Part shown: positions 1 to 23,040 of the stretch, piece by piece | How the letters are laid out: each line of letters begins with the position of its first letter | Position numbering within the stretch: the first letter of the stretch is position 1 | Origin: a virus | Lineage: Duplodnaviria > Caudoviricetes | DNA length: 33,230 nt | Direction: 5' to 3' (one strand) | IMG/VR virus record: IMGVR_UViG_3300033485_000056 | Location: 1-33,230 of that record | Translations under genes and position numbers: made by a program | Notes under the pieces: model-generated | What the model was told of the DNA's origin: nothing | The model's input: only the letters and a program-made list of their open reading frames with translations | The model's database searches: none

Positions 1-127
1 AAGTATTACAAGTCATGCTCTGCCGCCGAGAATGTAGTCATCATGCCTCATGGCGGTTTAAAGCGTAGACCCGGTATGTCACGGGTATCTGGTAGCTACA
101 TTAATAAGTATTGTCGTTTAGAGTCGT
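1..127. repeat. Terminal direct repeat (identical to 33104-33230); circular assembly overlap
   Basis: Exact 127-nt identity of both contig ends; it falls inside a gene that reads through the junction. Confidence 0.97.
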
Positions 128-1599: not shown

Positions 1600-1600
1600 C

Positions 1601-1996
1601 ATGGGAATTGAAACAGCATTAATAGCAACAGCAGTTCTAGGAGCTGGTACGTCTGTAATGTCAGGCATGCAACAGAAGAAGGCGTACAAGCAACAAGCTG
1701 AACAAGCTAAGATGGCAGCAGAGGCAAACGTAACAGACCGCACAAGAGCATTAAATGAAGCAATGGCAGTACAGAACGCTATGATGGGTTCATCAGGTCG
1801 TGCAATGGAAAGTATCAGCTCTGTAATTGGGGGCGATAAGAAGCGTTATGAGAGTGATGTTAAGATGATTAGAGCAGGAGCAGAGTCACAAGCACAGCAA
1901 TACAAGTCGGCAGGCAATACAGCTATGGCAATGGGTGTAGTTGAAGGTGCAAGTAAACTAAGCGAAGCAAAATATAAACACTCTATGTTAAAGTAG
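1601..1996 (+). CDS. Small internal virion (ejection) protein, gp14-like
   Basis: Ala/Gly/Gln/Met-rich with hydrophobic N-terminus; position after nozzle. Confidence 0.6.
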   Translation: MGIETALIATAVLGAGTSVMSGMQQKKAYKQQAEQAKMAAEANVTDRTRALNEAMAVQNAMMGSSGRAMESISSVIGGDKKRYESDVKMIRAGAESQAQQYKSAGNTAMAMGVVEGASKLSEAKYKHSMLK

Positions 1997-2002
1997 GAAG
2001 CA

Positions 2003-3628
2003 ATGGCAGATTTACAAAGATACCAAGGCGGAGCAACACCGTTTCAGCAAGTAGACCCTACGGCCGCTAAAGCATCAGCGCAAATGTTTCAATCACTATC
2101 TACACGCTTAGAAGAATGGAATGGCATAGCGTATAAACAAGCCCAAGTAGAAGTGGCAGAAGAAGGGCAACAGAAAGCCATTAACGATATGCTTAGCGGT
2201 GACCCATTGAAGATTGAAAAGGGCCATACGTTCTACGCTAATGCCTATAATGATATTTCTAAGGCTGCCTATAACGTACAAGTTGAGAGTGACCTAAAGA
2301 CTACTGCTGAGCAATACGCTGCACAATTTACCAATGACCCTAACGGCTTTAATAATGCTTTCGGTGCATACACTAAAGAGGCATTAAAGGGGCAGACTGA
2401 ACCTGAGTTCCAAGCGATACTAAAACAAAAAGCTATGACCTTGCAAGGCACATACGGTGCTAATGTAGCTAAGGAAGCTTTTAAGAATAACCGTGATAAT
2501 GAAAATAAAGCTATTGAGGCTTACAAAGATGAAGAAGCTATATCGTATGCCTCATTCATTGCTAATGGTGATGCAGTAGGCGCTACAAACTCTTTGGCTA
2601 AGATCACTTCACTCATAACATTACAAGCAGAACATGGACTCATGCACAAGGGTATGATACCGCTAGAGATTAAGAAGATGCAAGAGAAGGCACAAGAGAC
2701 TACTACTCTTATGAGACTAGATGAAAGCCTAGAACGTGGTGAAACTGACTTTGTGCAGAAGTTTACTAGTACTCCTGAGTATAAAGCGTTACCAATGGAT
2801 AAGCGCACTGCAATTAGTAAGAAAATGTATGAGCATATCGATGGTAAGTTCAAGGCTCAAACTGAGGCGTTTGATGCTAATGCTACGCTAGTTGAAAAAG
2901 TGAGTAAGAAAAAAGCACTAGACGTATCATCTGACATTATGCTAGGTAAGCCTCCAACTGATACACAGCTTGATGATATGCTTAGAGAAAATAAGCTAAG
3001 ACCTGAGGAATACAAGAACCTTAAAGAGTTAAAGAATGATATGAGCGCAGGTTCATTAACCGATAATGAAAGCGTAGTTATGGACTATGAACTAGCTATC
3101 GAGAGAGTAAACCCTAGAACGATAGCGTATGATAACAGACTCACAGCAAAGACTAAACAATCATTAATTAGCAAAGCAATATCACATCAGCGCAGGGTTG
3201 CATCAGATAAAGAGATGGCTAATGCTATGCGTGGATTCAAGCAGAATATGGGCGGTGACCCTTGGAAGGTAGCTGATGATTATATTGTAGCTAATGTTCC
3301 GCTTGACGATGCTACTGAGCTAAAGCGTTTACGCCTTACTATGAAGAACCAATTACGTGAGGATGTAGAAGCAGGAAAGATCAATGTATTCGATGTACCT
3401 GATGCCATGCAACAAAAGGTTGATTCGTACCTTGTTAAGAATAAAGATAAGACCGACTCCACCAAATATGATAGATCGTTTAAAGAATACGAGGATAAAG
3501 TCAAGGTTTATAATAAGTCTAAAAACTCCACTTTTGGTAAGCTCAAATCTAAAGTTGGTATTGACTCAACACCACCGCCACAAGCACCAGCTAAACCATC
3601 AAACTATATCCCTAAAGGACAGAGATGA
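2003..3628 (+). CDS. Internal virion (ejection) protein, gp15-like position
   Basis: 541-aa helical protein in the ejectosome block. Confidence 0.55.
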   Translation: MADLQRYQGGATPFQQVDPTAAKASAQMFQSLSTRLEEWNGIAYKQAQVEVAEEGQQKAINDMLSGDPLKIEKGHTFYANAYNDISKAAYNVQVESDLKTTAEQYAAQFTNDPNGFNNAFGAYTKEALKGQTEPEFQAILKQKAMTLQGTYGANVAKEAFKNNRDNENKAIEAYKDEEAISYASFIANGDAVGATNSLAKITSLITLQAEHGLMHKGMIPLEIKKMQEKAQETTTLMRLDESLERGETDFVQKFTSTPEYKALPMDKRTAISKKMYEHIDGKFKAQTEAFDANATLVEKVSKKKALDVSSDIMLGKPPTDTQLDDMLRENKLRPEEYKNLKELKNDMSAGSLTDNESVVMDYELAIERVNPRTIAYDNRLTAKTKQSLISKAISHQRRVASDKEMANAMRGFKQNMGGDPWKVADDYIVANVPLDDATELKRLRLTMKNQLREDVEAGKINVFDVPDAMQQKVDSYLVKNKDKTDSTKYDRSFKEYEDKVKVYNKSKNSTFGKLKSKVGIDSTPPPQAPAKPSNYIPKGQR

Positions 3629-5037
3629 GTGAGTTAGAATATAATCGAGAAGAAAGCAGTGGTTCAGAGTCTATGCTAAAAGCTATGCAAGACCAAGGCG
3701 CTACATATCGTGAAGAAGATTTAGCTACTAACCTTGACTGGATTGAGGCATCAGGCAAAGTATATCAGATGAATAATAACGGTGAGAAGTTCCAAGGTGA
3801 CTATAGAGCCTTAGCTAAGTACGGCATAGACCAAATGAGTGAGTTTAACTATAACGTGGCCATGGGAATGATACCTGACGTTTTAGCAGTAGAGAAAGCA
3901 GACCCTGAAACACAAATGTCATTTGCTTATTTAATGGATACCTACGATAAAAAAGATATTACATTAGATGGTTTTGGTAGGGCAGTTAAAGAGTTAGCAC
4001 TTGACCCCACTACCTATTTAGGTATTAGTACACTTGGTGCTGGGTTCGCCGTGAAGAAAGGCGCACAACAACTAGCCAAAGAAGGACTAAAGAATAGATT
4101 ACATAGCTCCATTAGAAACTATCTCACAAGTGGTTTAGCAGTAGGAGCTACTGAGGGAGCTATCTATTCAGCAGGAGATACAACAGCTAGAGAGATGATA
4201 CAAACTGATGCAGGACTACGTGAAGGAGTAAGCGGTACAGATGTAGCTATCTCAGGTGCCATCGGTGCAGGAGTTGGGGCAGGACTAGGCAAAGGTATCG
4301 AGGCAGCTGGGAAGGCTATCGGTAAAGGTATCGACTATATCAACCGTGAAGGTGAACAAGCTATGGCGCAAGTAGCTGGTGGCGGTGTGCCTCCTACTGC
4401 ATTTATGGATATGCCCATTGACAATACAAGAACTAGACGAGCTATCTCTAAACCTAGAACTGACTGGACAAAAGATAGAATAAAGAAAGAACTAAAAGGA
4501 ATGTACACTGACTCATCCAGTAGGACTTTTAGAAATGAAATATCAAGATTTAAAGATGAACAAGAATTAGATAATAATATTTTTTATCACGGTACATCTT
4601 CATCGGAAACAAAACTAAAACCCTCCATTGTTTTGAAGGAAGGAAGTTATGAGGGTGGAGGATATGGGGAGCAATATTGGGGCATAAGCGTATCTAAAAA
4701 TAGAAATATTGCGAGTAATTTTACTGGTAGTCAAAGTAGTGGCAGAGTAATGCCCATTCTTTTAAAGAAAGATGCAAAAATAATAGACATGCCGGAGATA
4801 AGTGATAGTGTAGAATTGGAAGATCATATTGAAGGATTATGGAAAAATAATATTGACGCTGTAAGAATTGGAGATTGGAACACCCCATATTCTGAACAAG
4901 AATTGGTTATACTAAACCCTCATTCTGCTGTAACTGGAAAGCCCGAAAGCTTTAGAGTATTCCAAAAAAAGAAGTTTGAAAATCTAACTCCATCAGAACT
5001 AATTGAATTACACAAACCATCAGAGGAAGCTAAATGA
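3625..5037 (+). CDS. Internal virion protein with C-terminal ADP-ribosyltransferase-like domain
   Basis: DPTTY plus Gly/Ala-rich membrane-like segment; C-terminal FYHGT...GISVSKNRNIASNF...GRVMPILL...IDAVRI...EQELVILNP pattern recalls the ART domain of polyvalent proteins. Confidence 0.6.
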   Translation: MSELEYNREESSGSESMLKAMQDQGATYREEDLATNLDWIEASGKVYQMNNNGEKFQGDYRALAKYGIDQMSEFNYNVAMGMIPDVLAVEKADPETQMSFAYLMDTYDKKDITLDGFGRAVKELALDPTTYLGISTLGAGFAVKKGAQQLAKEGLKNRLHSSIRNYLTSGLAVGATEGAIYSAGDTTAREMIQTDAGLREGVSGTDVAISGAIGAGVGAGLGKGIEAAGKAIGKGIDYINREGEQAMAQVAGGGVPPTAFMDMPIDNTRTRRAISKPRTDWTKDRIKKELKGMYTDSSSRTFRNEISRFKDEQELDNNIFYHGTSSSETKLKPSIVLKEGSYEGGGYGEQYWGISVSKNRNIASNFTGSQSSGRVMPILLKKDAKIIDMPEISDSVELEDHIEGLWKNNIDAVRIGDWNTPYSEQELVILNPHSAVTGKPESFRVFQKKKFENLTPSELIELHKPSEEAK

Positions 5038-8018
5038 ATGAAGAAGAACTAACAATCGTTGAACCAAAAATAGATGATGAACAAGCTCTAGCAGATGCTC
5101 AGGTTATGGCTGAAATGCCGCCAGCTGAGGTAACTGATGTATCAGAGGAAGAAGCAGGAATAGGTGCAGACATTACACGCTTCATCACTAAGGCTATTGG
5201 TATCACTCCTGATGTCCCTATATCTAAAGTTATGCCTAGTCCTAAAGCTAAAGTGAGTGCAGAAATACCTACGCCTAAAGTGGATACTACTGAGCCAATA
5301 GCAGAAACTCCTAAGCCTAAAGCCAAGCCTACACGCATGACTGCATGGGCTAATCGTGAGATACTGGCTAAGAAGCCTGAGCCTAAAGTAAAGAAGATAG
5401 GAGAGATGGTAGTATCTAAGCCTAGAGCAGTACATGAGGCAGAAGTAGTTCCTATGCCTAACGATGTTAATCCTGATGCTATGTTTACTAAGATGGAGCA
5501 GGGAACATCACCTAAGTTTGCTAAGTTTAATCCCGAGAAGGAAGCTGCCAATTTAGTAGAAGCAGATATTGACCAATTCGATGACTCAGTATCGCATCAG
5601 ATTAACTTTAATACTTTAGAGAATGAAGATGACGTTAATTCAGTTATCGCAAGTATCGCAGAGCAGAACAAAGCAAACATTGACTTTGAGCGTAGAGGCG
5701 TTGTATCTGATGACCAACTAATGAAGTTTGCTAATGACATAGGAGCAGATGAAACATTCGTGCGTGATGTCTTTATGCGTGAGGCTGGTGGTGCTATTCC
5801 TCCAGCTGAGTATGTAGTAGCTATGCGTCAAGTGCTTAACCAATCAGCCACTAAGCTTAAAATGTTAGCGGATAAAGTAGCCGGTGAGTTTTCACCGCAA
5901 GATAAAATTGAGTTCGCTAGACAGTTTGACTTCCACCGTAAGTTTCAATCTAAGTTCATGGGTGTTCGTGCTGAGTACGGTAGAGGCTTACGTGCGCTAG
6001 GTGTTCAGATGGGTAATGAGAACGATGTGCTTATGACGCTAGGAGCTATGGAGCGTGAACTGGACATTACTAAAGTAGCAGCAATGATAAGCGACTCAGA
6101 GAGCGCAACAGGTATTAATAAGATGGTTAATGCTTACTCTAGCAATGCTAAGTACGGTATGGACTTGCTCTATACTGAGTATATGTCATCTATGCTATCG
6201 GGCGTATCTACTCAGATGCTAAACTTTGGCGGTACAATCGCTAATATTAGTGTGAATATGGCAGAACGTAAAGTAGCATCATGGATGCCTAAAGGCGCTC
6301 ATGCTATGGACGAGGTACAAAACGATGAAGTGACAGCTATGCTTATCGGGTACTCATCATCATTTAAAGATGCAATGAAAGCAGGATGGAAAACACTAAA
6401 GACTGGTGACCCTTACAAGGGAATGGGCGCAACTGGTGAAGCCTTCACTATGCCTATGCCATCTGAAAAGTTTGCAATGGGTGAAACATCAGGAGCAGTA
6501 GCAGATATGGCGTTCAAGGCTATGGCTTTCCCTTTGCGTAATGTTATGGGCAGTACAGATACATTCTTTAAAGTTCTAAATGAGAGAGCGCAACTAGCTT
6601 CTAACTCATTCCGTGAAGCTAAAGCTATGGTAAATCGTGGCGAGATTCAGCCTGAGCAGTTTCAAGAAACACTAGCTAATATTATCAATGACCCTCACCA
6701 ATCAATGATTAATAAGTCTGAGGACTTTTCTAAAGAGATGGCGTACCAAGAAACACCAGGCAAGATGCTTACTAATATCATGAGTGCTATTAATAAAACA
6801 CCGGGTGCTAGATGGGTTGTTCCATTCGTTAAGACTCTAGGTAACATTACACGCCAAACATTAGTTGAGCGTACACCAGCAGCGGTTTTACAACAGAAGT
6901 TTAGAGATGAAGTAGCAGCAGGAGGAGCTAAAGGACAACTAGCACTTGCTAAGATGAGTTTAGGAACTGGCATTATGGCTACTTCGTATATGTTAGCTGA
7001 GAGCGGTAGTCTTACTGGCCCAGCTCCAAAAGATAGAGCAGAGCGTGACGCTTGGAAAGCAGCAGGAATGAAGCCATTCAGTATGGTATTCAATAATAAA
7101 GATGGCACTAAAGAGTATGTACCTTATACGGGGCTAGAGCCTTTCGCTACCTTCTTTGGTATCTCAGCATCTATCGCAGACTATCAGCGTAAATCTTCTT
7201 ATGTAGATTTATACGATGGGGAAGATGAGAAGTTCAACAGTGTCATGAGTGATTTGCTTGTGGCTATCAGCGAGAACACTCTAAATAGAACTTTTGCAGT
7301 TGGACTTCAAACATTTATGGATGCAGTAAGCGAGGGTGATGCTAAGTCATTCCAACGTTTAGCACAGAGCTATGCTAATACAATGATACCACTAGCAGGG
7401 CTTAGACGTAATATCACTAAGGATATGGATGAGTACAAGCGTAATACGGCAGGGGTTATGGAGTATATCCAATCTCAAATACCTACAATGAGTGAAGCAC
7501 TACCGCCAGTACGTGACTTATTCGGTGAGCCAGTTACACATGATTATACTTATATTCGCTGGAGTCCTTCTACTTCTACTAAAGACACAGTACGATTAGA
7601 GCTATTAAGACTCAATGAGCAAACTAAGAAAATGGCAGTACCACCAGCGAGAGCAATTCTAGGTAAACAGAAGATCAAGCCAGAGGATAGTGAGAAGTGG
7701 CTGACGTATGCTCGTAAAGAATACCGTGACTTTAGTGGGCGCACTTTGCATGAGCGAATAAATGATACAATTCAAGATGAAAACTATCTATCAATGCTTG
7801 AAGATGATAAGGTTAAACATATCCAATCTATCACACAAAAGAATGATATGGCAGCACTTAAAGAACTTGCTAAAGATGATGAGGAATTATTCTTACGACT
7901 TCATGCAAAAGATATTGTTAGAAGCGCCAATATCCTTATAGAAAAAGAAAACATGGATAAAGAAGATGCCTTGGAAGAAGCAAAGCAAGAATATGAAGAT
8001 ATATTTGGAGGTCGATAA
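5034..8018 (+). CDS. Large internal virion (ejection) protein, gp16-like position
   Basis: 994 aa, precedes tail fibre; PFVKT, GSLTGPAP, EPFAT and RDLFGEP motifs are typical of large podophage internal proteins. Confidence 0.65.
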   Translation: MNEEELTIVEPKIDDEQALADAQVMAEMPPAEVTDVSEEEAGIGADITRFITKAIGITPDVPISKVMPSPKAKVSAEIPTPKVDTTEPIAETPKPKAKPTRMTAWANREILAKKPEPKVKKIGEMVVSKPRAVHEAEVVPMPNDVNPDAMFTKMEQGTSPKFAKFNPEKEAANLVEADIDQFDDSVSHQINFNTLENEDDVNSVIASIAEQNKANIDFERRGVVSDDQLMKFANDIGADETFVRDVFMREAGGAIPPAEYVVAMRQVLNQSATKLKMLADKVAGEFSPQDKIEFARQFDFHRKFQSKFMGVRAEYGRGLRALGVQMGNENDVLMTLGAMERELDITKVAAMISDSESATGINKMVNAYSSNAKYGMDLLYTEYMSSMLSGVSTQMLNFGGTIANISVNMAERKVASWMPKGAHAMDEVQNDEVTAMLIGYSSSFKDAMKAGWKTLKTGDPYKGMGATGEAFTMPMPSEKFAMGETSGAVADMAFKAMAFPLRNVMGSTDTFFKVLNERAQLASNSFREAKAMVNRGEIQPEQFQETLANIINDPHQSMINKSEDFSKEMAYQETPGKMLTNIMSAINKTPGARWVVPFVKTLGNITRQTLVERTPAAVLQQKFRDEVAAGGAKGQLALAKMSLGTGIMATSYMLAESGSLTGPAPKDRAERDAWKAAGMKPFSMVFNNKDGTKEYVPYTGLEPFATFFGISASIADYQRKSSYVDLYDGEDEKFNSVMSDLLVAISENTLNRTFAVGLQTFMDAVSEGDAKSFQRLAQSYANTMIPLAGLRRNITKDMDEYKRNTAGVMEYIQSQIPTMSEALPPVRDLFGEPVTHDYTYIRWSPSTSTKDTVRLELLRLNEQTKKMAVPPARAILGKQKIKPEDSEKWLTYARKEYRDFSGRTLHERINDTIQDENYLSMLEDDKVKHIQSITQKNDMAALKELAKDDEELFLRLHAKDIVRSANILIEKENMDKEDALEEAKQEYEDIFGGR

Positions 8019-9673
8019 TGGCATTTAACATAAACCCCGGTAAACAACAGTTTACCGCAACAGCATCACAAACAGTATTTACATTTAACTTTGCTATCTT
8101 TGCAACTACTGATATTAAAGTATATAAGACTTTAGCTGGTGTAGTAGCAAACGATACGACAGACCTATTAACTCTTACCACTCATTACACAGTATCTATT
8201 AATGGAACGCTTGGCGGTACGGTTACGCTAGTATCAGGCGCTAGTGTTAATGATACTATTACTCTTGTACGATCATTGCCTATTACTAGAACAACTGACT
8301 ATGTAACCAATGGGGATTTATTTGCTGATACTTTAGACCTAGACCAAGACTACCAAACGTATCTCGTATTAGACCAAAACGTGCAACTTCAAAGAGCTAT
8401 CGTTGTTCCTGAATCTCTTGGCAATGTAGATTTAGATATTCCAGCACCAGTAGCAAACTCATATCTAAGATGGAACGCTACGGCTGACGCACTAGAGAAC
8501 GATACTTCAATACCTGACGATGTAGTTACCACTACTGCGAATGTAGTCTTAACTAATGCTGACGTAGTTTTAACACACGCTGATGTTGTATTAACTCATG
8601 CTGACGTAGTCTTAGCTAACAAATGGGCGGAAGAAGCGGAGGACGTAGAGGTAGCTACTGGGGAATACTCAGCACACCACTGGGCGATAAAAGCTGCGGC
8701 AAGTGCGGCAAGTTTAACAGTAGATGCAACTCCTACCGATGGAAGCGCAAATGCTGTATCCTCTAATAGTGTATTTGATGCTCTAGCTGGTAAACAATCT
8801 ACTCTTACATTTGATTCTGTGCCTACTAATGGAAGTACAAATCCAGTAGAAAGTAATGGCATATTTGATGCAATAGCCGCTATATCAACTTCTCCGTCAG
8901 GAGTCCGACAGACCGTACAATCAGCGTCAGTAGACACAAGCGGTTTCGCTAACTTTATCTCAATCGGTACAGGGCTTGCAGTAAACATTGCCGCAACTAC
9001 TACGCCTATCGTCATTCATGCGGCAGGTGGTAAAGTATCAAATGATCGTATTGGTACAATCAGCGCAGATACTTCAATAACTGGGCTTACTGCAAACACT
9101 ACAAACTACCTTTATGCAGACGTAGCGGCAAACGGAACAGTTACACTATCCGCTAACGTAGTCGCTCACTTAGAGCAATTTGGCGGTACTCCTGCAGTTA
9201 CAAACAATCTTCTAACATTTAACATTGGAGAGATGAAGGGGTACACTGGAAACGGTGCAACTGCTCCACAAACTTGGAGAGTTCCTATCGGTGAGGCTAT
9301 TACAAACGCAACTAATGTCACAAGCGTAGTGAGTTATGCTTTGAATGGTATGTATATAGAAGCATGGGACACAACACTTCCTTCTTCTATTGGTACATAT
9401 AGCAGAAACTCTAATCTAGGAGTAATCCCATTAATTACCTATATGGAAATTGAAAATACTACTGCTCAATCACCATTTAATGTAGGAGATAGACAAGTTG
9501 TATCTAATACTATAGTATCAGCGGCGGTATATTCGTTTACGCTTAATAAAACAAAAAATACTATTAGTCTATTTTTACCTAATATTATAAACTACCCACT
9601 TAACTCAGGGTCTAACACTACAATAACACTTGCTAGTTGGAAAAAAAGATTTATAGCACAAAGAGGATGGTAA
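8018..9673 (+). CDS. Tail fibre protein
   Basis: T7-fibre-like N-terminal adaptor (QTVFTFNFAIF...DIKVY...ITLVR), heptad repeats, YSAHHWA motif, Thr/Asn-rich C-terminus. Confidence 0.85.
   Translation: MAFNINPGKQQFTATASQTVFTFNFAIFATTDIKVYKTLAGVVANDTTDLLTLTTHYTVSINGTLGGTVTLVSGASVNDTITLVRSLPITRTTDYVTNGDLFADTLDLDQDYQTYLVLDQNVQLQRAIVVPESLGNVDLDIPAPVANSYLRWNATADALENDTSIPDDVVTTTANVVLTNADVVLTHADVVLTHADVVLANKWAEEAEDVEVATGEYSAHHWAIKAAASAASLTVDATPTDGSANAVSSNSVFDALAGKQSTLTFDSVPTNGSTNPVESNGIFDAIAAISTSPSGVRQTVQSASVDTSGFANFISIGTGLAVNIAATTTPIVIHAAGGKVSNDRIGTISADTSITGLTANTTNYLYADVAANGTVTLSANVVAHLEQFGGTPAVTNNLLTFNIGEMKGYTGNGATAPQTWRVPIGEAITNATNVTSVVSYALNGMYIEAWDTTLPSSIGTYSRNSNLGVIPLITYMEIENTTAQSPFNVGDRQVVSNTIVSAAVYSFTLNKTKNTISLFLPNIINYPLNSGSNTTITLASWKKRFIAQRGW
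8537..8620 (+). repeat. 4 x 21-bp degenerate coding tandem repeat (ANVVLTN/ADVVLTH/ADVVLTH/ADVVLAN)
   Basis: Visible in protein and DNA; coiled-coil heptads of the fibre. Confidence 0.85.
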
Positions 9674-9675
9674 TT

Positions 9676-10020
9676 ATGGCACGATATAAAAATGCACAAG
9701 GTCAAGTTTTATCAATAAATAGCGACCTACCACAAGATGGAAGTATTGCAACAGCGGCAGAGGTATTGGCTTATGAGTCAATCATACATATACCCAAAGT
9801 CGTAACTATGCGTCAAGCACGTTTAGCCTTACATCAATCAGGACTATTATCAACAGTAGATACTGCAATAATAAACGGCACAGATGCTGAATTAAAAATC
9901 GAATGGGAATTTGCGGCAGAAGTACGGAGAGATTGGGCTAGTTTAATCGCTATGGCTACTACTTTAAGCCTAACATCAACTGATCTTGATAACCTTTTCC
10001 TATTGGCAAGCACAAAGTAA
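9676..10020 (+). CDS. Tail-fibre-associated protein (assembly/chaperone-like)
   Basis: VTMRQARLAL...IEWEFA...LDNLF pattern common downstream of fibres; ATG at 9676 preferred over the upstream alternative start. Confidence 0.6.
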   Translation: MARYKNAQGQVLSINSDLPQDGSIATAAEVLAYESIIHIPKVVTMRQARLALHQSGLLSTVDTAIINGTDAELKIEWEFAAEVRRDWASLIAMATTLSLTSTDLDNLFLLASTK

Positions 10021-10427
10021 TGCCAAAATTCCTTACACCATTACAGATTGAGCTTATAGGAAAGCAAAAATATAAGCTTATATCCCCATTGGTGTATGAA
10101 AGTTATAGATGGCGCATTACTCTACTTATTGGATTTACGTGTGATAGCCTCTCAAAGCCAGAAGTGCTATGGTCAATCGTAGGCGCACCTTTTGGGGATG
10201 AAGATACATGGGCAGGATTCATACATGACGCTTTATATCGCTCACAGCTGTTCGATAGACGAATGTGTGATTATCTATTCTACGAGGCTCTATTGAGCTG
10301 TAACGTGCCTAAGATGAAAGCTCGTGCTATGTATTACGCTGTACGTGCTGGAGGTGAATCGGCATATCGAGAACGCCTTGATGTTTCAGGCTATCGTGAC
10401 CTAGTTTTGGTGGAAATAAATGGTTGA
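10020..10427 (+). CDS. DUF1353-family protein
   Basis: GFTCDSLSKP...IHDALY...CDYLFYEAL...MYYAVRAGG. Confidence 0.75.
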   Translation: MPKFLTPLQIELIGKQKYKLISPLVYESYRWRITLLIGFTCDSLSKPEVLWSIVGAPFGDEDTWAGFIHDALYRSQLFDRRMCDYLFYEALLSCNVPKMKARAMYYAVRAGGESAYRERLDVSGYRDLVLVEING

Positions 10428-10491
10428 AGCTGTGATAGCGTTCTCTATTGTATTTTGGCTAGTTTTGGCTTTATCAATAGATGATGTATAA
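10420..10491 (+). CDS. Small membrane peptide (23 aa, MVEAVIAFSIVFWLVLALSIDDV)
   Basis: Overlaps DUF1353 stop, GGA upstream, one hydrophobic helix; below the ORF-track cutoff. Confidence 0.4.
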   Translation: MVEAVIAFSIVFWLVLALSIDDV

Positions 10492-10522
10492 TAATAAAAT
10501 AAACACAAATAGGAACAATAAT

Positions 10523-10828
10523 ATGCCAAACAGCCCAGAAAATTATAGCTTTATAACTTATATGTGGGTTATTGGTTTGTCTATTTTAGGGGGGACAGTG
10601 CGAACATTAACAAATATAAAAATGGGTATGAAGTGGAAAGACGTATTTCGTAGATGGGTAATTGATATTACCGTATCAGCGTTTATAGGTATTATTACAT
10701 TCTTCCTATGTGAATATGCTCAACTTGAACCCGTATTAACTGCGGCTTTTGTTGGAGTATCTGCACACATGGGGACTCGTGCTATTTTAATTATCGAAGA
10801 AATTTTATATAGAAAGGCGGTTAAGTAA
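10523..10828 (+). CDS. Holin (LydA-like)
   Basis: MPNSPENYSFITY, three TM segments, SAHMGTRAI; AGGA SD before 10523; next to endolysin. Confidence 0.8.
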   Translation: MPNSPENYSFITYMWVIGLSILGGTVRTLTNIKMGMKWKDVFRRWVIDITVSAFIGIITFFLCEYAQLEPVLTAAFVGVSAHMGTRAILIIEEILYRKAVK

Positions 10829-11280
10829 TGGAAGGATATAGTAAATATTTTACGTTTGAAGAATTAACAGATAGCGATAACCATCCTGCGCTTGTACCTA
10901 AAAACCGTATAGATGCAATACAATTTAAACTTGCAGGTAAACGGCTATCAAAACTCTTAGAATCAATACGACACATCTTAGGTGATACACCATTAAAAGT
11001 AACATCAGGGTATAGAAATCATTTATTGAATAAAGCTGTGGGTTCAGTTGCTAAAAGTTCAGCCCACATGAGATTTGAAGCGGCAGATATAAAACCAAAA
11101 ATGAATTTAAAAGAAGCATTTAACGCTTTAATAATGGCGCATAAAGGTGGATTACTCCCTGATTTAAGAAAGGTATTAATTGAGTCATCATGGTTACATA
11201 TTCAAGTAAAAATGAATATGGATGACCCGACTGAATTTTTTACTACGAATGATAATATAAATTTTACAAAGGTAGCATAA
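10828..11280 (+). CDS. Endolysin, peptidase M15A family
   Basis: SKYFTFEEL, TSGYR, SSAHMRFEAAD and WLH Zn-peptidase motifs. Confidence 0.85.
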   Translation: MEGYSKYFTFEELTDSDNHPALVPKNRIDAIQFKLAGKRLSKLLESIRHILGDTPLKVTSGYRNHLLNKAVGSVAKSSAHMRFEAADIKPKMNLKEAFNALIMAHKGGLLPDLRKVLIESSWLHIQVKMNMDDPTEFFTTNDNINFTKVA

Positions 11281-11489
11281 TGAACCCACTTGCAATACTA
11301 GCTCTTCAATATCTAGCAGTACCGCTATTAAAAGGTATTGCAAACGTATCCATCGCTATGCTTAAAAAAGCTCCTAACGGTATCCCTAAGAAACTCGCCC
11401 TAACGCTCTTAGAAGCTATCACAGAAAGCGAAGCTAACGAAGTAAGCCAAGATCACGTTAAACAAGCAAAAGAAGTGCTACAAGCTTAA
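11280..11489 (+). CDS. Small hydrophobic/amphipathic protein ending the lysis cassette
   Basis: TAATG coupling to endolysin; 69 aa. Confidence 0.6.
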   Translation: MNPLAILALQYLAVPLLKGIANVSIAMLKKAPNGIPKKLALTLLEAITESEANEVSQDHVKQAKEVLQA

Positions 11490-11512
11490 TCTAAGCTATC
11501 TTGCTATAAAAT
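11485..11512 (+). promoter_or_regulatory. Putative sigma70 promoter for the sRNA
   Basis: CTAAGC(11491-96)-N10-TAAAAT(11507-12), same spacing as the repeated early promoters. Confidence 0.5.
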
Positions 11513-11517
11513 TACCT

Positions 11518-11625
11518 TGTTCCTATCTAGGACACCTCATCTATTCACCTCCTAAACACCTCAATCGTCCTGCTTCATCTCAGGGCGATACTTTCGACAA
11601 CCTCTTATAAAAGAGCGTCGTTTTT
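11518..11625 (+). ncRNA. Putative trans-acting antisense sRNA (anti-SD/anti-AUG)
   Basis: 5' hairpin TCCT/AGGA; three CACCTC copies (11533, 11546, 11557); 9-bp hairpin 11564-11589; terminator-like end; 11536-11552 complementary to several early-gene start regions. Confidence 0.6.
11595..11625 (+). terminator. Putative intrinsic terminator
   Basis: CGAC..CTCTT/AAGAG..GTCG interrupted stem followed by TTTTT. Confidence 0.5.
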
Positions 11626-11655
11626 ATCTACAATTAAGAAACATAGTTTTATAAT
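11622..11655 (+). promoter_or_regulatory. Putative promoter of antirepressor/replication operon
   Basis: TTTTAT-N4-AATTAAG-N11-TATAAT, a degenerate copy of the repeated early promoter. Confidence 0.65.
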
Positions 11656-11674
11656 GCTTTTACAATCTTTTAAC

Positions 11675-11746
11675 GGGGTACCAAGTCCACGGGAATGTTT
11701 TCCCGTTAAGAGTTTGCTTAACTGCGTGTGATTGACTTGGTACCTC
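11675..11746 (+). ncRNA. C4/P4-CI-like cloverleaf antisense RNA in the antirepressor leader
   Basis: 13-bp closing stem 11675-87/11734-46, bulge TGATT, CACG/CGTG stem, hairpins GGAA/TTCC and GTTAAG/CTTAAC. Confidence 0.6.
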
Positions 11747-11783
11747 TCTCACTCCTCTTGAATAATCATACCGAAAGAATAAA

Positions 11784-12401
11784 ATGAAACTCATAAAAAT
11801 TGAGTCAAATGTAATTGGTAATGGTGCGGTTAATTCCGTAAACAGTCGTGATATTCATACATCACTATGGGTAAAAACTCCTTATTCAATGTGGATTCAA
11901 AGAGCTATTGAAAAATATGGCTTTGAAGAAAACACCGATTTTACGATTAACAAATTTGTTATCGGTAAAGCAACACAGATTGACTATATTGTAACCATCG
12001 ACATGGCAAAAGAACTTTGTATGCTTGATGATAGCGAGATGGGGAAATCATACCGTCGTTATTTTATTGAAAAAGAAAAAGAGGCATTAAAGCCTATGAC
12101 AATTCAAGAACAAATCGCACTAATTGCACAAGGTAATCAAATCATTGATGATCGTGTTACACTACTCGAACAAACAAAACGACTCGAAGCATGGCAAGAA
12201 CGCTCACTAAGCGACGCTAAAAACAAAAAAGTATACTCATTTAACCCATCCGACGGAGAGAACACTTCAAAGCTTCACCGCGCTGTGTGGTCAAAGTTTA
12301 AAAAACATTTCAATCTCCCACGCTATAACGAACTTCCAGCGGTTAAATATGAAATTGGTTTGGAATTTATCAATAATTTAACTTTGATTGACTTGGTGTA
12401 A
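11784..12401 (+). CDS. Antirepressor-family protein (AntA/AntB N-domain + ORF6C-like C-domain)
   Basis: VNSRDIH...WIQRAIEKYGFEENTDF...DY..TIDMAKELCM...RRYFI; C-terminal FKKHFNLPRYNELP. Confidence 0.85.
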   Translation: MKLIKIESNVIGNGAVNSVNSRDIHTSLWVKTPYSMWIQRAIEKYGFEENTDFTINKFVIGKATQIDYIVTIDMAKELCMLDDSEMGKSYRRYFIEKEKEALKPMTIQEQIALIAQGNQIIDDRVTLLEQTKRLEAWQERSLSDAKNKKVYSFNPSDGENTSKLHRAVWSKFKKHFNLPRYNELPAVKYEIGLEFINNLTLIDLV

Positions 12402-13659: not shown

Positions 13660-14210
13660 AAAACCAACTAATCCAAGACATCAAAAGCAAACTAAAAATA
13701 GTCGGAGGTCACTTCGTAGATGCTGAAATATCAGATTACATCGCAAACATACCTCCCGCAAAGTACAAAGAGTTTTTTAAAGACCTAAGCGGAGATGAGT
13801 TTTCATTTAAGAACGGACTAGATAGGGTCAAGATAGTATCTGAGCGTTACACAAACACGCCTAAAAACGATTTTATCGCAGAAGCTAAGGAAATCGTTAG
13901 CCTTATGCACTCAATCAACAAAACAGCCATTATAGAGTCTCAGGCGAGAGGCATAGGCTATGTTCAATTTATGGCAGGGCTAAAGATTAGAGAAACTTTT
14001 AATCTATCGGATAAACAAGCGCACGTTATTAACGAGATCGGAGGGCGTGAGTACATTATGAAAGTCAATGAAACAGAGCCTAATAGTTTGGAAAGAAAAG
14101 TAGTAGAGCAGTTGGAAAAATATGCACATCGTGATATTAAGCAACTATCAGCAGTGAGAGCCAATAAAGAAGTAATGCAGTTAGCAAACAATATTGTGAA
14201 GAGAGGGTGA
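13656..14210 (+). CDS. Hypothetical protein, possibly helicase loader by position
   Basis: 184-aa ORF with ATGA coupling; function inferred from synteny only. Confidence 0.5.
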   Translation: MKNQLIQDIKSKLKIVGGHFVDAEISDYIANIPPAKYKEFFKDLSGDEFSFKNGLDRVKIVSERYTNTPKNDFIAEAKEIVSLMHSINKTAIIESQARGIGYVQFMAGLKIRETFNLSDKQAHVINEIGGREYIMKVNETEPNSLERKVVEQLEKYAHRDIKQLSAVRANKEVMQLANNIVKRG

Positions 14211-14212
14211 GG

Positions 14213-14845
14213 ATGAAAATTTTAGTAGCTTGTGAAGAAAGCCAGGCAGTAACAACGGAGTTGAGATTATTAGGTCATGAAGCATACTCGTGTGATATTG
14301 AGCCATGCGGAGGAGAGCATCCTGAATGGCACTTACAACAAGATGTTATTCCGTTACTAGAAAAAAAGTGGGATATGATAATTGCATTTCCTCCATGCAC
14401 GTATCTAACTGTTACTGGCAACAGATGGTTTAACGTAGAACGATACGGAGAAAAAGCAATACAACGGCATAAAGATCGCGAGTGGGCTATTAACTTTTTT
14501 ATGACGATAGCTAACTCTAAGTGCAAAAAAATTGCTATTGAAAATCCAGTTGGAATTATGAGCAGTGAATGGAGAAAGCCCGACCAAATCATAAACCCAT
14601 TTCAGTTCGGTGAACCATTCGAGAAAAAAACGTGCTTATGGTTAAAAGGATTGCAAAAGTTAGAAAATACAGAAGTAGTAGAACCGCCAACAAGAACAAA
14701 ATTCGATAGCGGAAAATCAATGCCTACATGGTACGCTGATTGTTGGAAACTTCCTGCAAAAGAACGAGCAAAACAGAGATCAAAAACTTTCACCGGAATC
14801 GCAAAAGCTATGGCTATGCAATGGTGCGGAGAGTGTAGAACATAA
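14213..14845 (+). CDS. DNA cytosine-5 methyltransferase-like protein
   Basis: MKILVACEES, SCDI, AFPPCTYL (catalytic PC), IENP, KKTCLWL, RSKTF.GIA.AMA.QW. Confidence 0.8.
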   Translation: MKILVACEESQAVTTELRLLGHEAYSCDIEPCGGEHPEWHLQQDVIPLLEKKWDMIIAFPPCTYLTVTGNRWFNVERYGEKAIQRHKDREWAINFFMTIANSKCKKIAIENPVGIMSSEWRKPDQIINPFQFGEPFEKKTCLWLKGLQKLENTEVVEPPTRTKFDSGKSMPTWYADCWKLPAKERAKQRSKTFTGIAKAMAMQWCGECRT

Positions 14846-14884
14846 AACCCTTTTATACTTAATTAAGCTAAAACAGTGTACTAT
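14843..14884 (+). promoter_or_regulatory. Repeated early promoter/operator, copy 1
   Basis: TAAAA-N3-TTTTATACTTAATTAAGCT then -10 TACTAT (14879-84). Confidence 0.8.
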
Positions 14885-14910
14885 TTTAAATACCAATGGA
14901 GGTGAAGAAG

Positions 14911-15822
14911 ATGAAAGAAATCGAAGTAGAATTAATTGAAGTTGAAACGCTAGACGTTTCCAAAGCAGTTGAGGTAACTCAAAAACCAATCATTGCATAT
15001 AAAATGCTTGAAATAATTAGTAAAAATGTTGGGGATAAAATTCAATCCCTTAATATCGAATCGCTCGAACCTACTGATGATAATTTATCTCTCATTAAAC
15101 GAACACGGGCAGATTTAACAAAAGATTTTAACGATCTTGAAAATCAGCGTAAAATGGTTAAAGAAATCATCATGAAAGACTACAATCTTTTTGAAGATGA
15201 TTACAAAAAGCTTATTTCGTCATTGTTTAAAAATGCAGACGATCAGCTTAAAAATCTTGCATCAACAGTGGACGATAAAATCCTATCGGTAAAAATTGAT
15301 GGTATCAAAGAATACTTTAACGAAGAAAACACGTTTGAGTTTATCAATTTTGACGATTTAGGATTGAAGATTATCAAATCAAAATCTGATAAATCAATCA
15401 AAACTGAAATTGACGAATATCTCGCAAACATCAAAATGAGTATTTCAACAATCGAAACACTCCCAAATAAAGAGCGTGTGCTTGCAAAGTTTCAAATGAG
15501 CCGTGATTTAAATCGTTCAATCTCTGAAACAAATATCGAAATTCAGCGTGAGGAACAAATCAAAGCGCAAAACGAAGAACGTGAACGCCAAGCGGAAGAA
15601 CGTCGATTAATGCTCGAAGAATCACAACGTATTGCAAAGGCACAGTTCCGAGAAGATATTACGCAAAGCCAATTCATTGAAGAGCATCAGCAAGTTCTAA
15701 CACCTCAACTAATTACCGAAGAAGAACCAGTTTTTAAATGCACATTTTCAGTATTAGCAACAAAAGCACAATTAAAACAATGCAAAGAATTTTTTGCACA
15801 AATAGGAGTAAAGTATGAGTAA
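14911..15822 (+). CDS. DUF1351-like coiled-coil protein
   Basis: KRTRADLTK..NDLENQRK pattern, upstream of recombinase; GGAGGTG SD favours ATG 14911. Confidence 0.65.
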   Translation: MKEIEVELIEVETLDVSKAVEVTQKPIIAYKMLEIISKNVGDKIQSLNIESLEPTDDNLSLIKRTRADLTKDFNDLENQRKMVKEIIMKDYNLFEDDYKKLISSLFKNADDQLKNLASTVDDKILSVKIDGIKEYFNEENTFEFINFDDLGLKIIKSKSDKSIKTEIDEYLANIKMSISTIETLPNKERVLAKFQMSRDLNRSISETNIEIQREEQIKAQNEERERQAEERRLMLEESQRIAKAQFREDITQSQFIEEHQQVLTPQLITEEEPVFKCTFSVLATKAQLKQCKEFFAQIGVKYE

Positions 15823-17571: not shown

Positions 17572-17613
17572 TAAAATACTTTTATACTTAATTAAGCTTA
17601 GTTAGTCTATAAT
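17572..17613 (+). promoter_or_regulatory. Repeated early promoter/operator, copy 2
   Basis: TAAAA-N3-TTTTATACTTAATTAAGCT then TATAAT (17608-13). Confidence 0.8.
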
Positions 17614-17620
17614 TGTTCTA

Positions 17621-18088
17621 CAAGATACGGATCACCTAAATCAATAAAAAGTTTCATCGGCACGAGTAGGTGGAGTGTGCGGTATCTTGCAAGTTATTTG
17701 ATTTACCATCCCAAAGATTACGATAGGGACAAACAAAAATATGGTCGTAAAATAAACCATGTTTAGAGCTTTTGATGCAGGGGTAAAGACGGTGACTAAT
17801 CCGTAAAGCGGTAGAGGTTGAACGCCATTGAGACCATTTTGAATTGGATAGTTGAGATGCTATCCCCCTTGCACAGAGAGCTTTTGCTAGTGATACATAG
17901 TGGCGTAATAAAAGAAACAAGATGGAAGCCTGCAAGTATTTATCAAGATTCTATAAAACACAGACAGTAAAAATTCGTATCCATGCGATTGGTGTCTATA
18001 TCTATGTATCACTACAAAGAGCTTTTAATACAGTCAAGCCATTCAAACAGATGACATTAACTTGGCTGTATTAAGGGTTTAAAGCCCT
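17621..18088 (+). ncRNA. Array of long-stem structured RNA units separated by AGAGCTTTT linkers
   Basis: Closing stems 17621-28/17682-89, 17776-83/17866-73, 17888-900/18002-14 (13 bp perfect), 18025-38/18061-74 (14 bp, one G-U); linkers at 17765, 17877, 18018. Confidence 0.6.
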
Positions 18089-18106
18089 AAAAAACGGAGG
18101 TGAAAG

Positions 18107-18169
18107 ATGAAACAAAAATTACAACAGCTTGAAAATTGGTTCGCTGAAATAGCGGAAAGGATTTTTTGA
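18107..18169 (+). CDS. Small peptide (20 aa, MKQKLQQLENWFAEIAERIF)
   Basis: Strong GGAGGTG SD; TGATG coupling to next gene. Confidence 0.6.
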   Translation: MKQKLQQLENWFAEIAERIF

Positions 18170-18705: not shown

Positions 18706-18789
18706 ATGAACATCGAAAACACAATAGCTGGTGCGGTGATCGTAGTTATCGCTTTGATTTATATTTACACATACTTGGAGGGTGAATGA
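18706..18789 (+). CDS. Small membrane peptide (27 aa, MNIENTIAGAVIVVIALIYIYTYLEGE)
   Basis: Fills the gap between genes, single TM, coupled to next ORF. Confidence 0.55.
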   Translation: MNIENTIAGAVIVVIALIYIYTYLEGE

Positions 18790-19166
18790 TGAACGAGAAA
18801 CAGATGGTAGAAATGCAAAAGCATATTGAGGCGTTACGAAAAGAAAAAGAAATTTTAGCAAACCTATGGGCTATTAGTGAATTACAAAAAGATAAAAAGG
18901 CAAAACAGTTCCGCATAGCAATCGGTAGTTTCGTAATCGTCATAACTTTTTTAGGCGTTTGGATTTATTCGCTGTATTACGCAAACGGTCTTTTAGCAAC
19001 GGATAACCAAACGAAAGAGAATTGGAAGCGGTCAGCAGTTCATCTATTGAAAATAAATGAAGATTTACGAATGGAAAATATGTATATCAAAGATGGAATG
19101 GAAGAAGCTATAAAAACTGGCTTCATTCAGAAAATGCCACCACCGATGGTAAAAAATGACAAGTAA
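18786..19166 (+). CDS. Hypothetical membrane protein
   Basis: One central TM segment. Confidence 0.6.
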   Translation: MMNEKQMVEMQKHIEALRKEKEILANLWAISELQKDKKAKQFRIAIGSFVIVITFLGVWIYSLYYANGLLATDNQTKENWKRSAVHLLKINEDLRMENMYIKDGMEEAIKTGFIQKMPPPMVKNDK

Positions 19167-21490: not shown

Positions 21491-21669
21491 AACAATGCGC
21501 CAAATGCACAGAAACTAAGCCACAAAGCGAATTCCCAAAGCTAGGCGATAAACTACGTGCGGAATGTAAAAGTTGCTACTACGCCGCTAAAAACGCTAGA
21601 CGAAGAAAGCCAAGTAAACAAGAGCGTATCGAAAGAATACGTGTGGCGATAAATAGCATTAAAGTGTAA
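21487..21669 (+). CDS. Small Zn-finger protein
   Basis: CAKC...KP.SEF...CKSC. Confidence 0.6.
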   Translation: MKQCAKCTETKPQSEFPKLGDKLRAECKSCYYAAKNARRRKPSKQERIERIRVAINSIKV

Positions 21670-21708
21670 AACTATTTTATACTTAATTAAGCTAAACAAT
21701 GTTACTAT
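21667..21708 (+). promoter_or_regulatory. Repeated early promoter/operator, copy 3
   Basis: TAAAA-N3-TTTTATACTTAATTAAGCT then TG-n-TACTAT (21700-08). Confidence 0.8.
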
Positions 21709-21736
21709 TTTAAAATATCAAAAAGAGGTGGATTAG

Positions 21737-21916
21737 ATGAGACAACAAGGAAAAAGTTTACTACAATATCATTTAGTAGTATTTAACATTGACCAAGAAA
21801 TGATTGGTAACCCAAACGCTAGAAAACTATGGCAACATATTTGTATTGAAGCTGAAAGCAATAATTCTTTTAAAGAAAAAGTTATCAGCTATGCAGTCTG
21901 TATCATCAATCGTTAA
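21737..21916 (+). CDS. Hypothetical protein (59 aa, MRQQGKSLLQYHLV...)
   Basis: GAGGTG SD; first ORF after promoter copy 3; missed by 60-aa cutoff. Confidence 0.55.
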   Translation: MRQQGKSLLQYHLVVFNIDQEMIGNPNARKLWQHICIEAESNNSFKEKVISYAVCIINR

Positions 21917-22468: not shown

Positions 22469-22788
22469 GTAAAGCTGAACAACTCAAACGCCATGCGCCA
22501 CTAAAGCAAAAGCCGTTTGTTGATAAAAAGTATCTCGCATACTTACATAGTCAGCCTCAAAAATGTTTCGTGTGTGGCGGTAGTAATAAAATTGAACTCC
22601 ATCACATAAAACTCACATCAAGCGATTTAAAGGATGATAGGCTCGTGATTTGTTTGTGTGGTGAAGAACATCACCGAAACGGAGAACTAAGCCCTCACGG
22701 TAACCCTAAGCGATGGAGAGAAACATATCCTATCGAAGTACAAAGAGAATACGCACAAAAACTTTACAACGAATATAAAGGGGAATAG
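22462..22788 (+). CDS. HNH-like (DUF968/Ref-like) nuclease
   Basis: KKYLAYL...CFVCG...ELHH...ICLC..HH. Confidence 0.65.
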   Translation: MLSKAEQLKRHAPLKQKPFVDKKYLAYLHSQPQKCFVCGGSNKIELHHIKLTSSDLKDDRLVICLCGEEHHRNGELSPHGNPKRWRETYPIEVQREYAQKLYNEYKGE

Positions 22789-23040
22789 ATGAACGGTGAA
22801 ATTACATATACATTTTCAAGGGCATTATATTTAATGCGCTATGGTGGTAAGAAAATGAGTCCAGTTAGTAAAAATTTTGTAGATGATTGGGTTTATTTTG
22901 TAGATGGTGATGTTTTATTTGTCATAACTGGAAAATATCCACATAAAAATAGTATGGTAGATATTGTTAATGTTGCTGAATGTATGGACTCCGATGACAT
23001 AATGGGATCATGGGTAGAGGTGCAAGATGAAAAGCATTAA
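22789..23040 (+). CDS. DUF2829/Tad2-like small protein (tentative)
   Basis: TFSRAL.LM..GKKM...DDIMGSWVEV resembles the F..AL..LK.GKKV...D..A.DW..V frame. Confidence 0.4.
   Translation: MNGEITYTFSRALYLMRYGGKKMSPVSKNFVDDWVYFVDGDVLFVITGKYPHKNSMVDIVNVAECMDSDDIMGSWVEVQDEKH

What the first reader, a model, noticed from the sequence alone, without database searches (positions are those of the whole stretch)
11518..11625. Candidate multi-target antisense sRNA against the start regions of the phage's own early operons
Seen in sequence: a non-coding unit with a promoter-like site, a 5' hairpin, a 9-bp hairpin and a terminator-like end. Its single-stranded core 11536-11552 (CTCATCTATTCACCTCC) has reverse complement GGAGGTGAATAGATGAG. 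This matches the SD+AUG of the first gene behind each of the three repeated promoters: 14898-14914 GGAGGTGAAgaAGATGA (9+6 bp), 18096-18110 GGAGGTGAA-AGATGA (15 bp, 1 bulge) and 21725-21741 GAGGTGgatTAGATGAG (16 bp, 1 G-U, 1 bulge). It also matches 22779-22792 AGGgGAATAGATGA (13/14), 23017-23030 GAGGTGcaAGATGA and 18777-18792 GGAGgGTGAAT-GATGA. Two more CACCTC copies and the hairpin loop CTTCATCT (anti-AGATGAAG) repeat both halves of the seed. Most structural genes use AAGGA-type SDs and match far less. Inference: one sRNA could act as master translational repressor (immunity or early shut-off) in a phage with no visible CI. Established context: Campylobacterota lack Hfq and use C/U-rich sRNAs such as RepG and CJnc190. 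Caveat: the anti-SD part pairs with any strong SD, so the extension over AGATGA is the informative part.
Basis: partly seen in the sequence, partly recalled or inferred. Interest (0 to 1): 0.9.

Follow-up and report, generated by a model that had tools for sequence, protein, structure and literature searches.

The report
Phage RNA mirroring early-operon start sites
A virus that likely infects the freshwater bacterium Sulfuricurvum carries a conserved 108-base hairpin sequence whose exposed middle is the mirror image of the ribosome-binding and start-codon region of the first gene of each of three early operons, so it likely acts as a small RNA that turns those operons down, although no transcript has been seen.

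Summary
11518-11625 is a conserved non-coding unit in a complete 33.1-kb phage, likely of Sulfuricurvum. Eight distinct copies keep the promoter-like site, two hairpins with compensatory changes and G-U pairs that favour a + strand RNA, and an unpaired anti-SD/anti-AUG seed. No Rfam match.

In five RNA-bearing phages, 15 of 15 operon-first genes have a GAGG-type SD and AG|ATG, although those genes are swapped between phages. Other genes show it in 18 of 244 cases, host genes in 12 of 318. A blind scan ranks the seed as the best partner of these starts in 5 of 5 genomes.

Against: no expression data; no seed-target covariation (one relative changed the seed without changing targets); G004 has the start signature (3 of 3) but no detectable RNA; the sites belong to about four cassette families.

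The replication operon is not matched and no integrase or CI was found, so damping or shut-off of early operons fits better than immunity. New variant of C/U-rich anti-SD sRNAs.

The parts
11492..11512 (+). Predicted promoter of the RNA, TAAG-11nt-TAAAAT
   Evidence: Same spacing as the repeated early promoters; TAAG and TAAAAT kept in 8 of 8 copies. Activity untested.
11518..11625 (+). Candidate small RNA, about 108 nt (ends inferred)
   Evidence: 8 distinct copies; 97.8% of 184 cells paired, 5 pairs with both-side changes; z -4.62; no Rfam match
11518..11534 (+). 5' hairpin
   Evidence: Two haplotypes (6 and 2 copies) with different sequence and the same fold; 92.5% of cells paired
11536..11553 (+). 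Single-stranded seed: anti-AUG, anti-AG, anti-SD
   Evidence: Identical over 11537-11553 in 7 of 8 copies, one base changed in L084/G003; predicted unpaired; best genome-wide partner of operon-first starts in 5 of 5 phages
11564..11589 (+). 9-bp hairpin whose loop (11573-11580) repeats the anti-start half of the seed
   Evidence: 72 of 72 cells paired, 3 pairs with both-side changes, G-U pairs valid only on +; loop TCATC invariant; loop alone pairs at -7 to -8 kcal/mol
11595..11625 (+). 3' hairpin with U tail (terminator-like, also at the end of the late/lysis operon)
   Evidence: Nearly invariant sequence; not listed by the terminator scan
11280..11489 (+). 69-aa orphan gene that travels with the RNA
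   Evidence: Directly upstream in 8 of 8 copies; a 55%-identical homolog (L095) has no RNA behind it; its start is not among the top 14 of 54
14843..14914 (+). Promoter cassette P1 and predicted target 1 (ATG 14911, DUF1351-like first gene of the recombination operon)
   Evidence: Repeat D2; duplex -23.8; cassette kept to the ATG in 5 relatives while the gene behind it differs
17572..17619 (+). Promoter cassette P2
   Evidence: Repeat D2; followed by a 480-nt structured leader here and directly by a gene in G001 and L089
18096..18110 (+). Predicted target 2 (ATG 18107, 20-aa first ORF of the P2 operon)
   Evidence: Duplex -23.7; rank 1 of 54 with the whole RNA; the same ORF pairs at -10.9 and -9.6 where it is not first (G002, L089) and -17.8 in G001
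21667..21741 (+). Promoter cassette P3 and predicted target 3 (ATG 21737, 59-aa orphan)
   Evidence: Repeat D2; duplex -24.1; other first genes in G001-G003 keep AG|ATG
22779..22792 (+). Predicted secondary target inside the P3 operon (ATG 22789)
   Evidence: Rank 2 of 54 with the whole RNA; same start region in G002 and G003, changed in G001
14199..14216 (+). Weaker possible target (ATG 14213, DNA methyltransferase)
18777..18792 (+). Weaker possible target (ATG 18786/18789)
   Evidence: Rank 6 of 54; extension lost in G001 and G003 (-15.1)

Best explanation
The element is likely a phage-encoded small RNA of about 108 nt that is predicted to pair across the Shine-Dalgarno site and start codon of the first gene of each of three early operons, and so would turn their translation down while sparing the replication and structural genes. 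Shown: conserved fold, conserved unpaired seed, exact complementarity, and a start signature that goes with first position in the operon. Inferred: transcription from its own promoter (and possibly from the late operon, which ends here), Hfq-independent pairing through a 15-17 bp duplex, blocked 30S binding, and polarity on downstream genes. The most likely role is damping or shut-off of the recombination and accessory operons as the RNA accumulates during a lytic infection.
For: Compensatory changes in two hairpins; 0 of 500 shuffles reach the paired-cell share, and slid controls give 35-54%. + strand consensus -24.19 against -19.1 for -. Unit kept while lysin, ant and (in G002, G003) tail-side genes are swapped. 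AG|ATG in 15 of 15 operon-first genes (10 distinct 14-nt leaders) against 18 of 244 other genes and 2 of 21 other strong-SD genes; host 12 of 318, strong SD 1 of 25, promoter-proximal 1 of 10; 30 other phage loci 98 of 743, 9 of 76, 0 of 8. Seed ranks first among 6,613-8,276 scored windows in 5 of 5 RNA-bearing phages. Top 6 of 54 starts are all in the early region; best late gene -14.2. The natural 5 nt between anti-AUG and anti-SD rank 7 of 1024. The 20-aa ORF matches best where it is first. No Hfq in 5 of 5 Sulfuricurvum genomes searched. C/U-rich anti-RBS repression is established in this phylum (PMC8687705, passages).
Against: No seed-target covariation: G003 changed the seed base facing the G of AG|ATG and its three first genes did not follow, losing 3.6-5.2 kcal/mol. 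G004 has the signature at 3 of 3 promoter-proximal genes and no RNA or best partner; L330 has two such starts and no RNA in the 13 kb held. So the signature can exist without this RNA. The 15 sites fall into about four cassette families, so the Fisher p of 2e-8 is inflated. Many internal genes have a stop codon at -2/-1, which lowers their AG rate. Four of the 15 first genes were assigned by hand. The covariation rests on two haplotypes per hairpin. The single window sequence folds slightly better on the minus strand (-26.0 against -23.7). In G002 an internal gene and in G003 a doubtful late start outrank the first genes.
Confidence: 0.55

Rival explanations
1. The RNA maintains a non-integrated carrier or plasmid-like state and gives immunity in place of a CI protein: replication genes stay on, while polar silencing of P1-P3 (P3 leads into terminase) keeps the lytic programme off.
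For: No integrase or HTH_3 repressor in 5 of 5 records; own host-type promoter; replication operon spared; all genes on one strand with P3 running into terS.
Against: No partition genes seen; no copy in 151 and 5 host-family genomes or in plasmids; G004 lacks the RNA yet has the same layout; pairing alone rarely gives tight repression (my knowledge).
Confidence: 0.13
2. The RNA is a generic anti-SD RNA aimed at host mRNAs or at co-infecting relatives that share the cassettes; the match to the phage's own starts is a by-product.
For: Relatives without the RNA (G004) carry matching starts at -18.7 and -20.8; many variants occur together in one run; 2 of 318 host starts reach -20.
Against: AG|ATG is rare in the host (12 of 318), and GAGGT..AGATG counts in five host genomes (10-43) are of the order of their reversed controls (19-25); the promoter-plus-signature pattern is found once in 3 of 353 host-family genomes; self-matching starts would be selected against if harmful.
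Confidence: 0.15
3. The unit is a structured 3' end or spacer of the late operon, and the seed is an inverted copy of a cassette RBS with no role in trans; the shared AG|ATG is inherited with the promoter cassette or read by a protein.
For: Signature present without the RNA (G004, L330); G003 tolerates a seed change; cassettes are repeats; promoter cassettes that shuffle genes are known in T4-type phages (PMC2839356, search listing only).
Against: The seed is more conserved than the stems around it and than the coding gene upstream; promoter boxes invariant in 8 of 8; the anti-start motif is kept a second time in a loop whose stem changed; spacers vary in length and sequence while AG stays.
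Confidence: 0.13
4. The seed is the real RBS of a minus-strand gene, decayed or tiny.
For: The minus strand reads as a perfect SD plus ATG, and the G003 change keeps that ATG.
Against: Frames are 5-7 codons with unconserved peptides; no minus-strand TAAG-type promoter in 11400-12000; G-U pairs break on minus.
Confidence: 0.04

Closest known systems
C/U-rich trans-acting sRNAs of Campylobacterota: CJnc190 (C. jejuni) and RepG (H. pylori) (PMC8687705, passages read)
   Same: C/U-rich single-stranded element pairing with a G-rich RBS or leader; repression of translation; host phylum without Hfq.
   Different: Those are chromosomal and act on host genes; here the RNA is phage-encoded, the seed lies between hairpins, includes anti-AUG, and the predicted targets are the phage's own operon-first genes. 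No sequence family match.
Cuckoo / alpha-r14 anti-SD sRNAs (PMC4615179, passages read)
   Same: Anti-SD motif displayed by a small hairpin RNA with covarying stems.
   Different: Cuckoo RNAs have 2-4 hairpins each with CCUCCUCCC in the loop and are alphaproteobacterial; here the anti-SD is in a linker and the loop carries the anti-start motif.
Phage antisense regulators: P22 Sar, lambda OOP and aQ, VP882 VpdS (PMC12197685, parts 1-2 of 6 read); P1/P7 C4 (PMC8201110, passages)
   Same: Phage RNA controlling phage gene expression by pairing; Sar blocks translation initiation of ant.
   Different: Sar, OOP and aQ are single-target antisense RNAs, C4 controls ant, VpdS needs Hfq. This RNA is distant from its targets, multi-target, and does not match the adjacent ant start.
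Start-associated sequences (SAS) of Cluster K mycobacteriophages (PMC3203893, passages read)
   Same: A phage-specific extended RBS shared by many non-structural genes, conserved beyond 16S pairing; the authors left open an RNA or protein reader.
   Different: Different sequence and host; no partner RNA is known for SAS, whereas here a complementary RNA is in the same genome.

Membership tests
Any Rfam family (incl. RepG, cuckoo/ar14, C4, Sar) | Covariance-model match at the gathering score | tested here: not met
   0 matches in the window; only E 2.6-4.6 chance hits near the unit
RepG/CJnc190-like sRNAs (functional kind) | C/U-rich single-stranded element complementary to a G-rich RBS | tested here: met
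   Unpaired seed, 15-17 bp duplexes at about -24 kcal/mol
RepG/CJnc190-like sRNAs (functional kind) | Host lacks Hfq | tested here: met
   0 of 5 Sulfuricurvum genomes match PF17209, control rings in 5 of 14; genomes may be incomplete and the host is inferred
RepG/CJnc190-like sRNAs (functional kind) | Transcript exists and represses translation by pairing | not testable with these tools
   No RNA holder listed; needs experiment
Cuckoo / alpha-r14 | 2-4 hairpins each with CCUCCUCCC in the loop | tested here: not met
   Anti-SD lies in the linker; loops lack the motif
Cis-antisense phage RNAs (Sar, OOP, aQ) | Encoded opposite its single target with perfect complementarity | tested here: not met
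   Same strand as the targets and 3-11 kb away; imperfect duplexes
C4-type antisense repressor of ant | Pairs with sites in the ant leader of its own operon | tested here: not met
   ant start 11784 is not among the top 14 of 54 (only -40..+20 tested); the ant leader has its own internal pairing
Type I antitoxin | Pairs with the start of a neighbouring small toxin gene | tested here: not met
   Start of the 69-aa gene is not among the top 14 of 54; its start region varies between relatives
Multi-target phage early-start regulator (proposed kind) | Seed and target sites change together across relatives | tested here: inconclusive
   Seed identical in 7 of 8; the one change is not followed by the three first genes, though it gains one other start (-19.1 against -14.8)

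The most novel reading that the evidence does not exclude
A single Hfq-independent RNA serves as the master regulator of a non-integrating phage with no CI: it reads a dedicated extended RBS class placed at the head of every gene-shuffling promoter cassette, so any gene swapped into first position falls under its control, and it sets early shut-off or a carrier state with RNA-based immunity.
Probability: 0.2. Interest if true: 0.9.

Novelty: new variant of a known kind. Interest (0 to 1): 0.68.

Why it matters
Known phage regulatory RNAs mostly control one gene or need Hfq. An RNA that reads one RBS class shared by all cassette-first early genes would be a compact way to switch a phage from its early programme without a protein repressor, and would keep working as genes are shuffled. 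It would give a testable model for unexplained start-associated sequences such as the mycobacteriophage SAS, and a first regulatory element for phages of sulfur-oxidising Campylobacterota. Unchecked AI notes from this scan describe similar designs in unrelated phages, so this may be one case of a recurring, undescribed strategy.

Tried and rejected
Expression: no RNA holder listed; the one possibly-RNA run laid nothing; neither is evidence. Distant homologs: model R1 found 4 of 33 phage records, all already known, plus one E 0.66 hit; 0 of 151 and 0 of 5 host-family genomes; 0 of 80 loci from the signature and host searches; one chance-level hit in cultured phages and none in plasmids; nothing by protein in genome contigs or with the endolysin. 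An analog in G004: none by R1 without filters, duplex scans or alignment of its C-rich post-lysis patch (113 of 1000 shuffles as good). Analogs in 33 loci (31 of other phages plus the two G004 stretches): none. Pattern scans 45 and 47 had wrong gap lengths and are uninformative. The signature scan of viral contigs gave 85 stretches; among the 80 listed only G001-G004 had two copies, and the singles were mostly unrelated phages. E. coli-type promoter and terminator scans do not list the RNA's promoter or 3' hairpin. Rejected: minus-strand gene, type I antitoxin, C4-type ant repressor, cuckoo membership, target 23027.

Full report
Setting. The window is a complete phage genome of 33,103 bp with a 127-nt terminal repeat. 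All genes with a family match are on the + strand: tail and internal virion genes, holin, endolysin, a 69-aa orphan (11280-11489), then ant, a replication initiator, methylases, recombination genes, accessory genes, terminase and head genes (56 proteins scanned). The SSB is 76% identical to SSBs of Sulfuricurvum genomes, which fill the top of the list; the host is inferred from this. No tyrosine integrase or HTH_3 repressor was found in 5 of 5 phage records, 3 of them at least 90% complete.

Observation. The unit folds at -23.7 kcal/mol, z -4.62, 0 of 200 shuffles as good, and the seed is predicted unpaired. The upstream site TAAG-11nt-TAAAAT has the spacing of the three repeated promoters and of the ant promoter; the pattern occurs 6 times on the + strand and twice on the - strand. 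The E. coli-type scanners list neither this promoter nor the 3' hairpin. Rfam has no match.

It is a conserved structured RNA. Searching with the 69-aa gene gave 4 viral and 8 metagenome loci, which reduce to 7 distinct relatives with the unit plus one distant homolog (L095) without it. In the 8 aligned copies both hairpins occur in two haplotypes that keep the fold: 97.8% of 184 cells pair, 5 pairs change on both sides, 0 of 500 shuffles reach the paired share and 6 of 500 the pair count, and slid controls give 35-54%. These are few independent events. The second hairpin pairs in 72 of 72 cells using G-U pairs that break on the minus strand; the consensus energy is -24.19 on + and -19.1 on -, although the window sequence alone folds slightly better on -. 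The seed 11537-11553 is identical in 7 of 8 copies and the loop motif TCATC in 8 of 8. The two extra CACCTC copies are not conserved. Lysin and ant genes on either side are swapped between relatives, and in G002 and G003 most of the 10 kb upstream has no DNA match to the window. Contigs from two further runs listed under different study codes hold variants, including the second stem haplotype. On the minus strand the seed would start frames of 5-7 codons with unconserved peptides and no promoter pattern lies upstream.

The targets are special. In the window and four relatives, all 11 genes within 60 nt of a TAAG-11nt-TAnnAT promoter have AG directly before ATG and a GAGG-type SD. Adding four operon-first genes by hand (three behind the long P2 leader, one behind a 69-nt gap) gives 15 of 15, with 10 distinct 14-nt leaders, against 18 of 244 other ATG genes and 2 of 21 other strong-SD genes. 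Gene starts were called by my own script and some are wrong. Controls: 400 kb of a Sulfuricurvum genome, 12 of 318 overall, 1 of 25 strong-SD, 1 of 10 promoter-proximal; 30 loci of other phages, 98 of 743, 9 of 76, 0 of 8. The gene behind each cassette differs between phages while the cassette is kept to the ATG. The 20-aa ORF pairs at -23.7 and -24.7 where it is first, and at -17.8, -10.9 and -9.6 where it is not (window seed). A blind scan of 24-nt windows on both strands (step 4, windows with CC, direct antisense to the targets left out) puts the seed first in 5 of 5 RNA-bearing genomes. With the whole RNA, the top 6 of 54 window starts are early genes (18107, 22789, 21737, 14911, 14213, 18789); the best late gene reaches -14.2; ant, the replication initiator, the 69-aa gene and 23027 are not in the top 14. 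With the SD fixed, 19, 14 and 5 of 193 swapped spacers pair as well, and the natural five bases between anti-AUG and anti-SD rank 7 of 1024.

Results against. (1) No seed-target covariation. G003 changed the seed base facing the G of AG|ATG; its three first genes did not follow and lose 3.6-5.2 kcal/mol, while one other start gains (-19.1 against -14.8). (2) G004, a more distant relative estimated 91% complete, has the signature at 3 of 3 promoter-proximal genes but no R1 match, no standout partner and no significant remnant. L330, a distant fragment, has two such starts and no RNA in the 13 kb held. The signature may therefore be older than the RNA, which could have adapted to it, or it may have another reader. 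(3) The 15 sites belong to about four cassette families, so the Fisher p of 2e-8 overstates the case, and stop codons overlapping internal starts lower the control rate. (4) In G002 an internal gene and in G003 a doubtful late start outrank the first genes. (5) There are no expression data (searches are blank and not evidence).

Mechanism. The best reading is a trans-acting, Hfq-independent RNA (no Hfq in 5 of 5 host-genus genomes) that covers SD and AUG of the first gene of P1, P2 and P3, blocks initiation, and through polarity lowers the operons behind. The second loop could serve as a first contact (-7 to -8 kcal/mol alone); this is inference. Because the replication operon is spared, no integrase or CI is seen, and the RNA sits at the end of the late operon with its own host-type promoter, damping or shut-off during lytic growth (0.55) is more likely than immunity in a carrier state (0.13), action on host or competing phages (0.15), no role in trans (0.13) or a minus-strand gene (0.04).

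Comparison. It works like CJnc190 and RepG, which use C/U-rich loops on G-rich sites (PMC8687705, passages), but belongs to no Rfam family. It fails the cuckoo definition (PMC4615179, passages). Phage RNAs in the review I partly read (PMC12197685, parts 1-2 of 6; its supplementary table of 38 uncharacterised RNAs not seen) are single-target antisense RNAs or Hfq-dependent. The shared extended RBS recalls mycobacteriophage SAS, for which an RNA or protein reader was left open (PMC3203893, passages). Five searches of the open-access library (listings and abstract starts seen) showed no paper describing this RNA or a phage RNA aimed at the first genes of several of its own operons; subscription papers are not covered. 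Eight unchecked AI notes from this scan describe similar designs in other genomes; none matches this sequence. They are leads, not support, and suggest the design recurs.

Verdict. A real, undescribed, clade-restricted structured RNA with a strong but correlational link to its phage's early operon starts. New variant of a known kind; interest 0.68.

Noticed in passing
window 11655-11783; L085 10355-10510, L083 10355-10505, L002 9845-9998, L004 9850-10000, L008 9830-9990: The leader of ant has two mutually exclusive folds: an upstream hairpin encloses an 11-nt segment that is complementary to a site further down, and segment and site change together in six phages. It ends in a C-rich tract before a weak SD. 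It recalls C4 / P4 CI control of ant (recalled); no Rfam match.
   Followed up: partly
window 17620-18095: A 480-nt, highly structured leader behind promoter P2 (-137.5 kcal/mol), absent in G001 and L089; G003 has a tRNA-Trp in the equivalent place. No tRNA or meaningful Rfam match in the window.
   Followed up: partly
L089 about 7645-7735 and L093 about 565-650: A tRNA-like insertion directly after the RNA's 3' hairpin in two relatives, not called by ARAGORN; also seen as loose ends in runs X1 and X2.
   Followed up: no
G004 (L102 13652-13702, 15952-16005; L103 about 3110-3176): A relative with the same promoter-plus-AG|ATG cassettes but no detectable RNA; it has a C-rich patch after the lysis genes (8450-8560) and a 290-nt structured intergenic region (23290-23580, -89.4 kcal/mol).
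   Followed up: partly
window 21737-21916 and 21804-22235: The 59-aa first ORF of P3 has no homolog in the relatives and overlaps a TTG-started frame whose last 114 codons match a 156-aa protein of G002 and G003 at 93-96%; a replaced 5' end or a frameshift.
   Followed up: partly
window 11280-11489: 69-aa orphan with only 7 homologs among 5.8 billion proteins, no Pfam or PHROG match, always the last gene of the lysis block.
   Followed up: partly
L082-L084 against window 1-11280: The same early-region cassettes and RNA are joined to structural modules that do not match each other at DNA level in G002 and G003, so the control module moves between virion types.
   Followed up: partly
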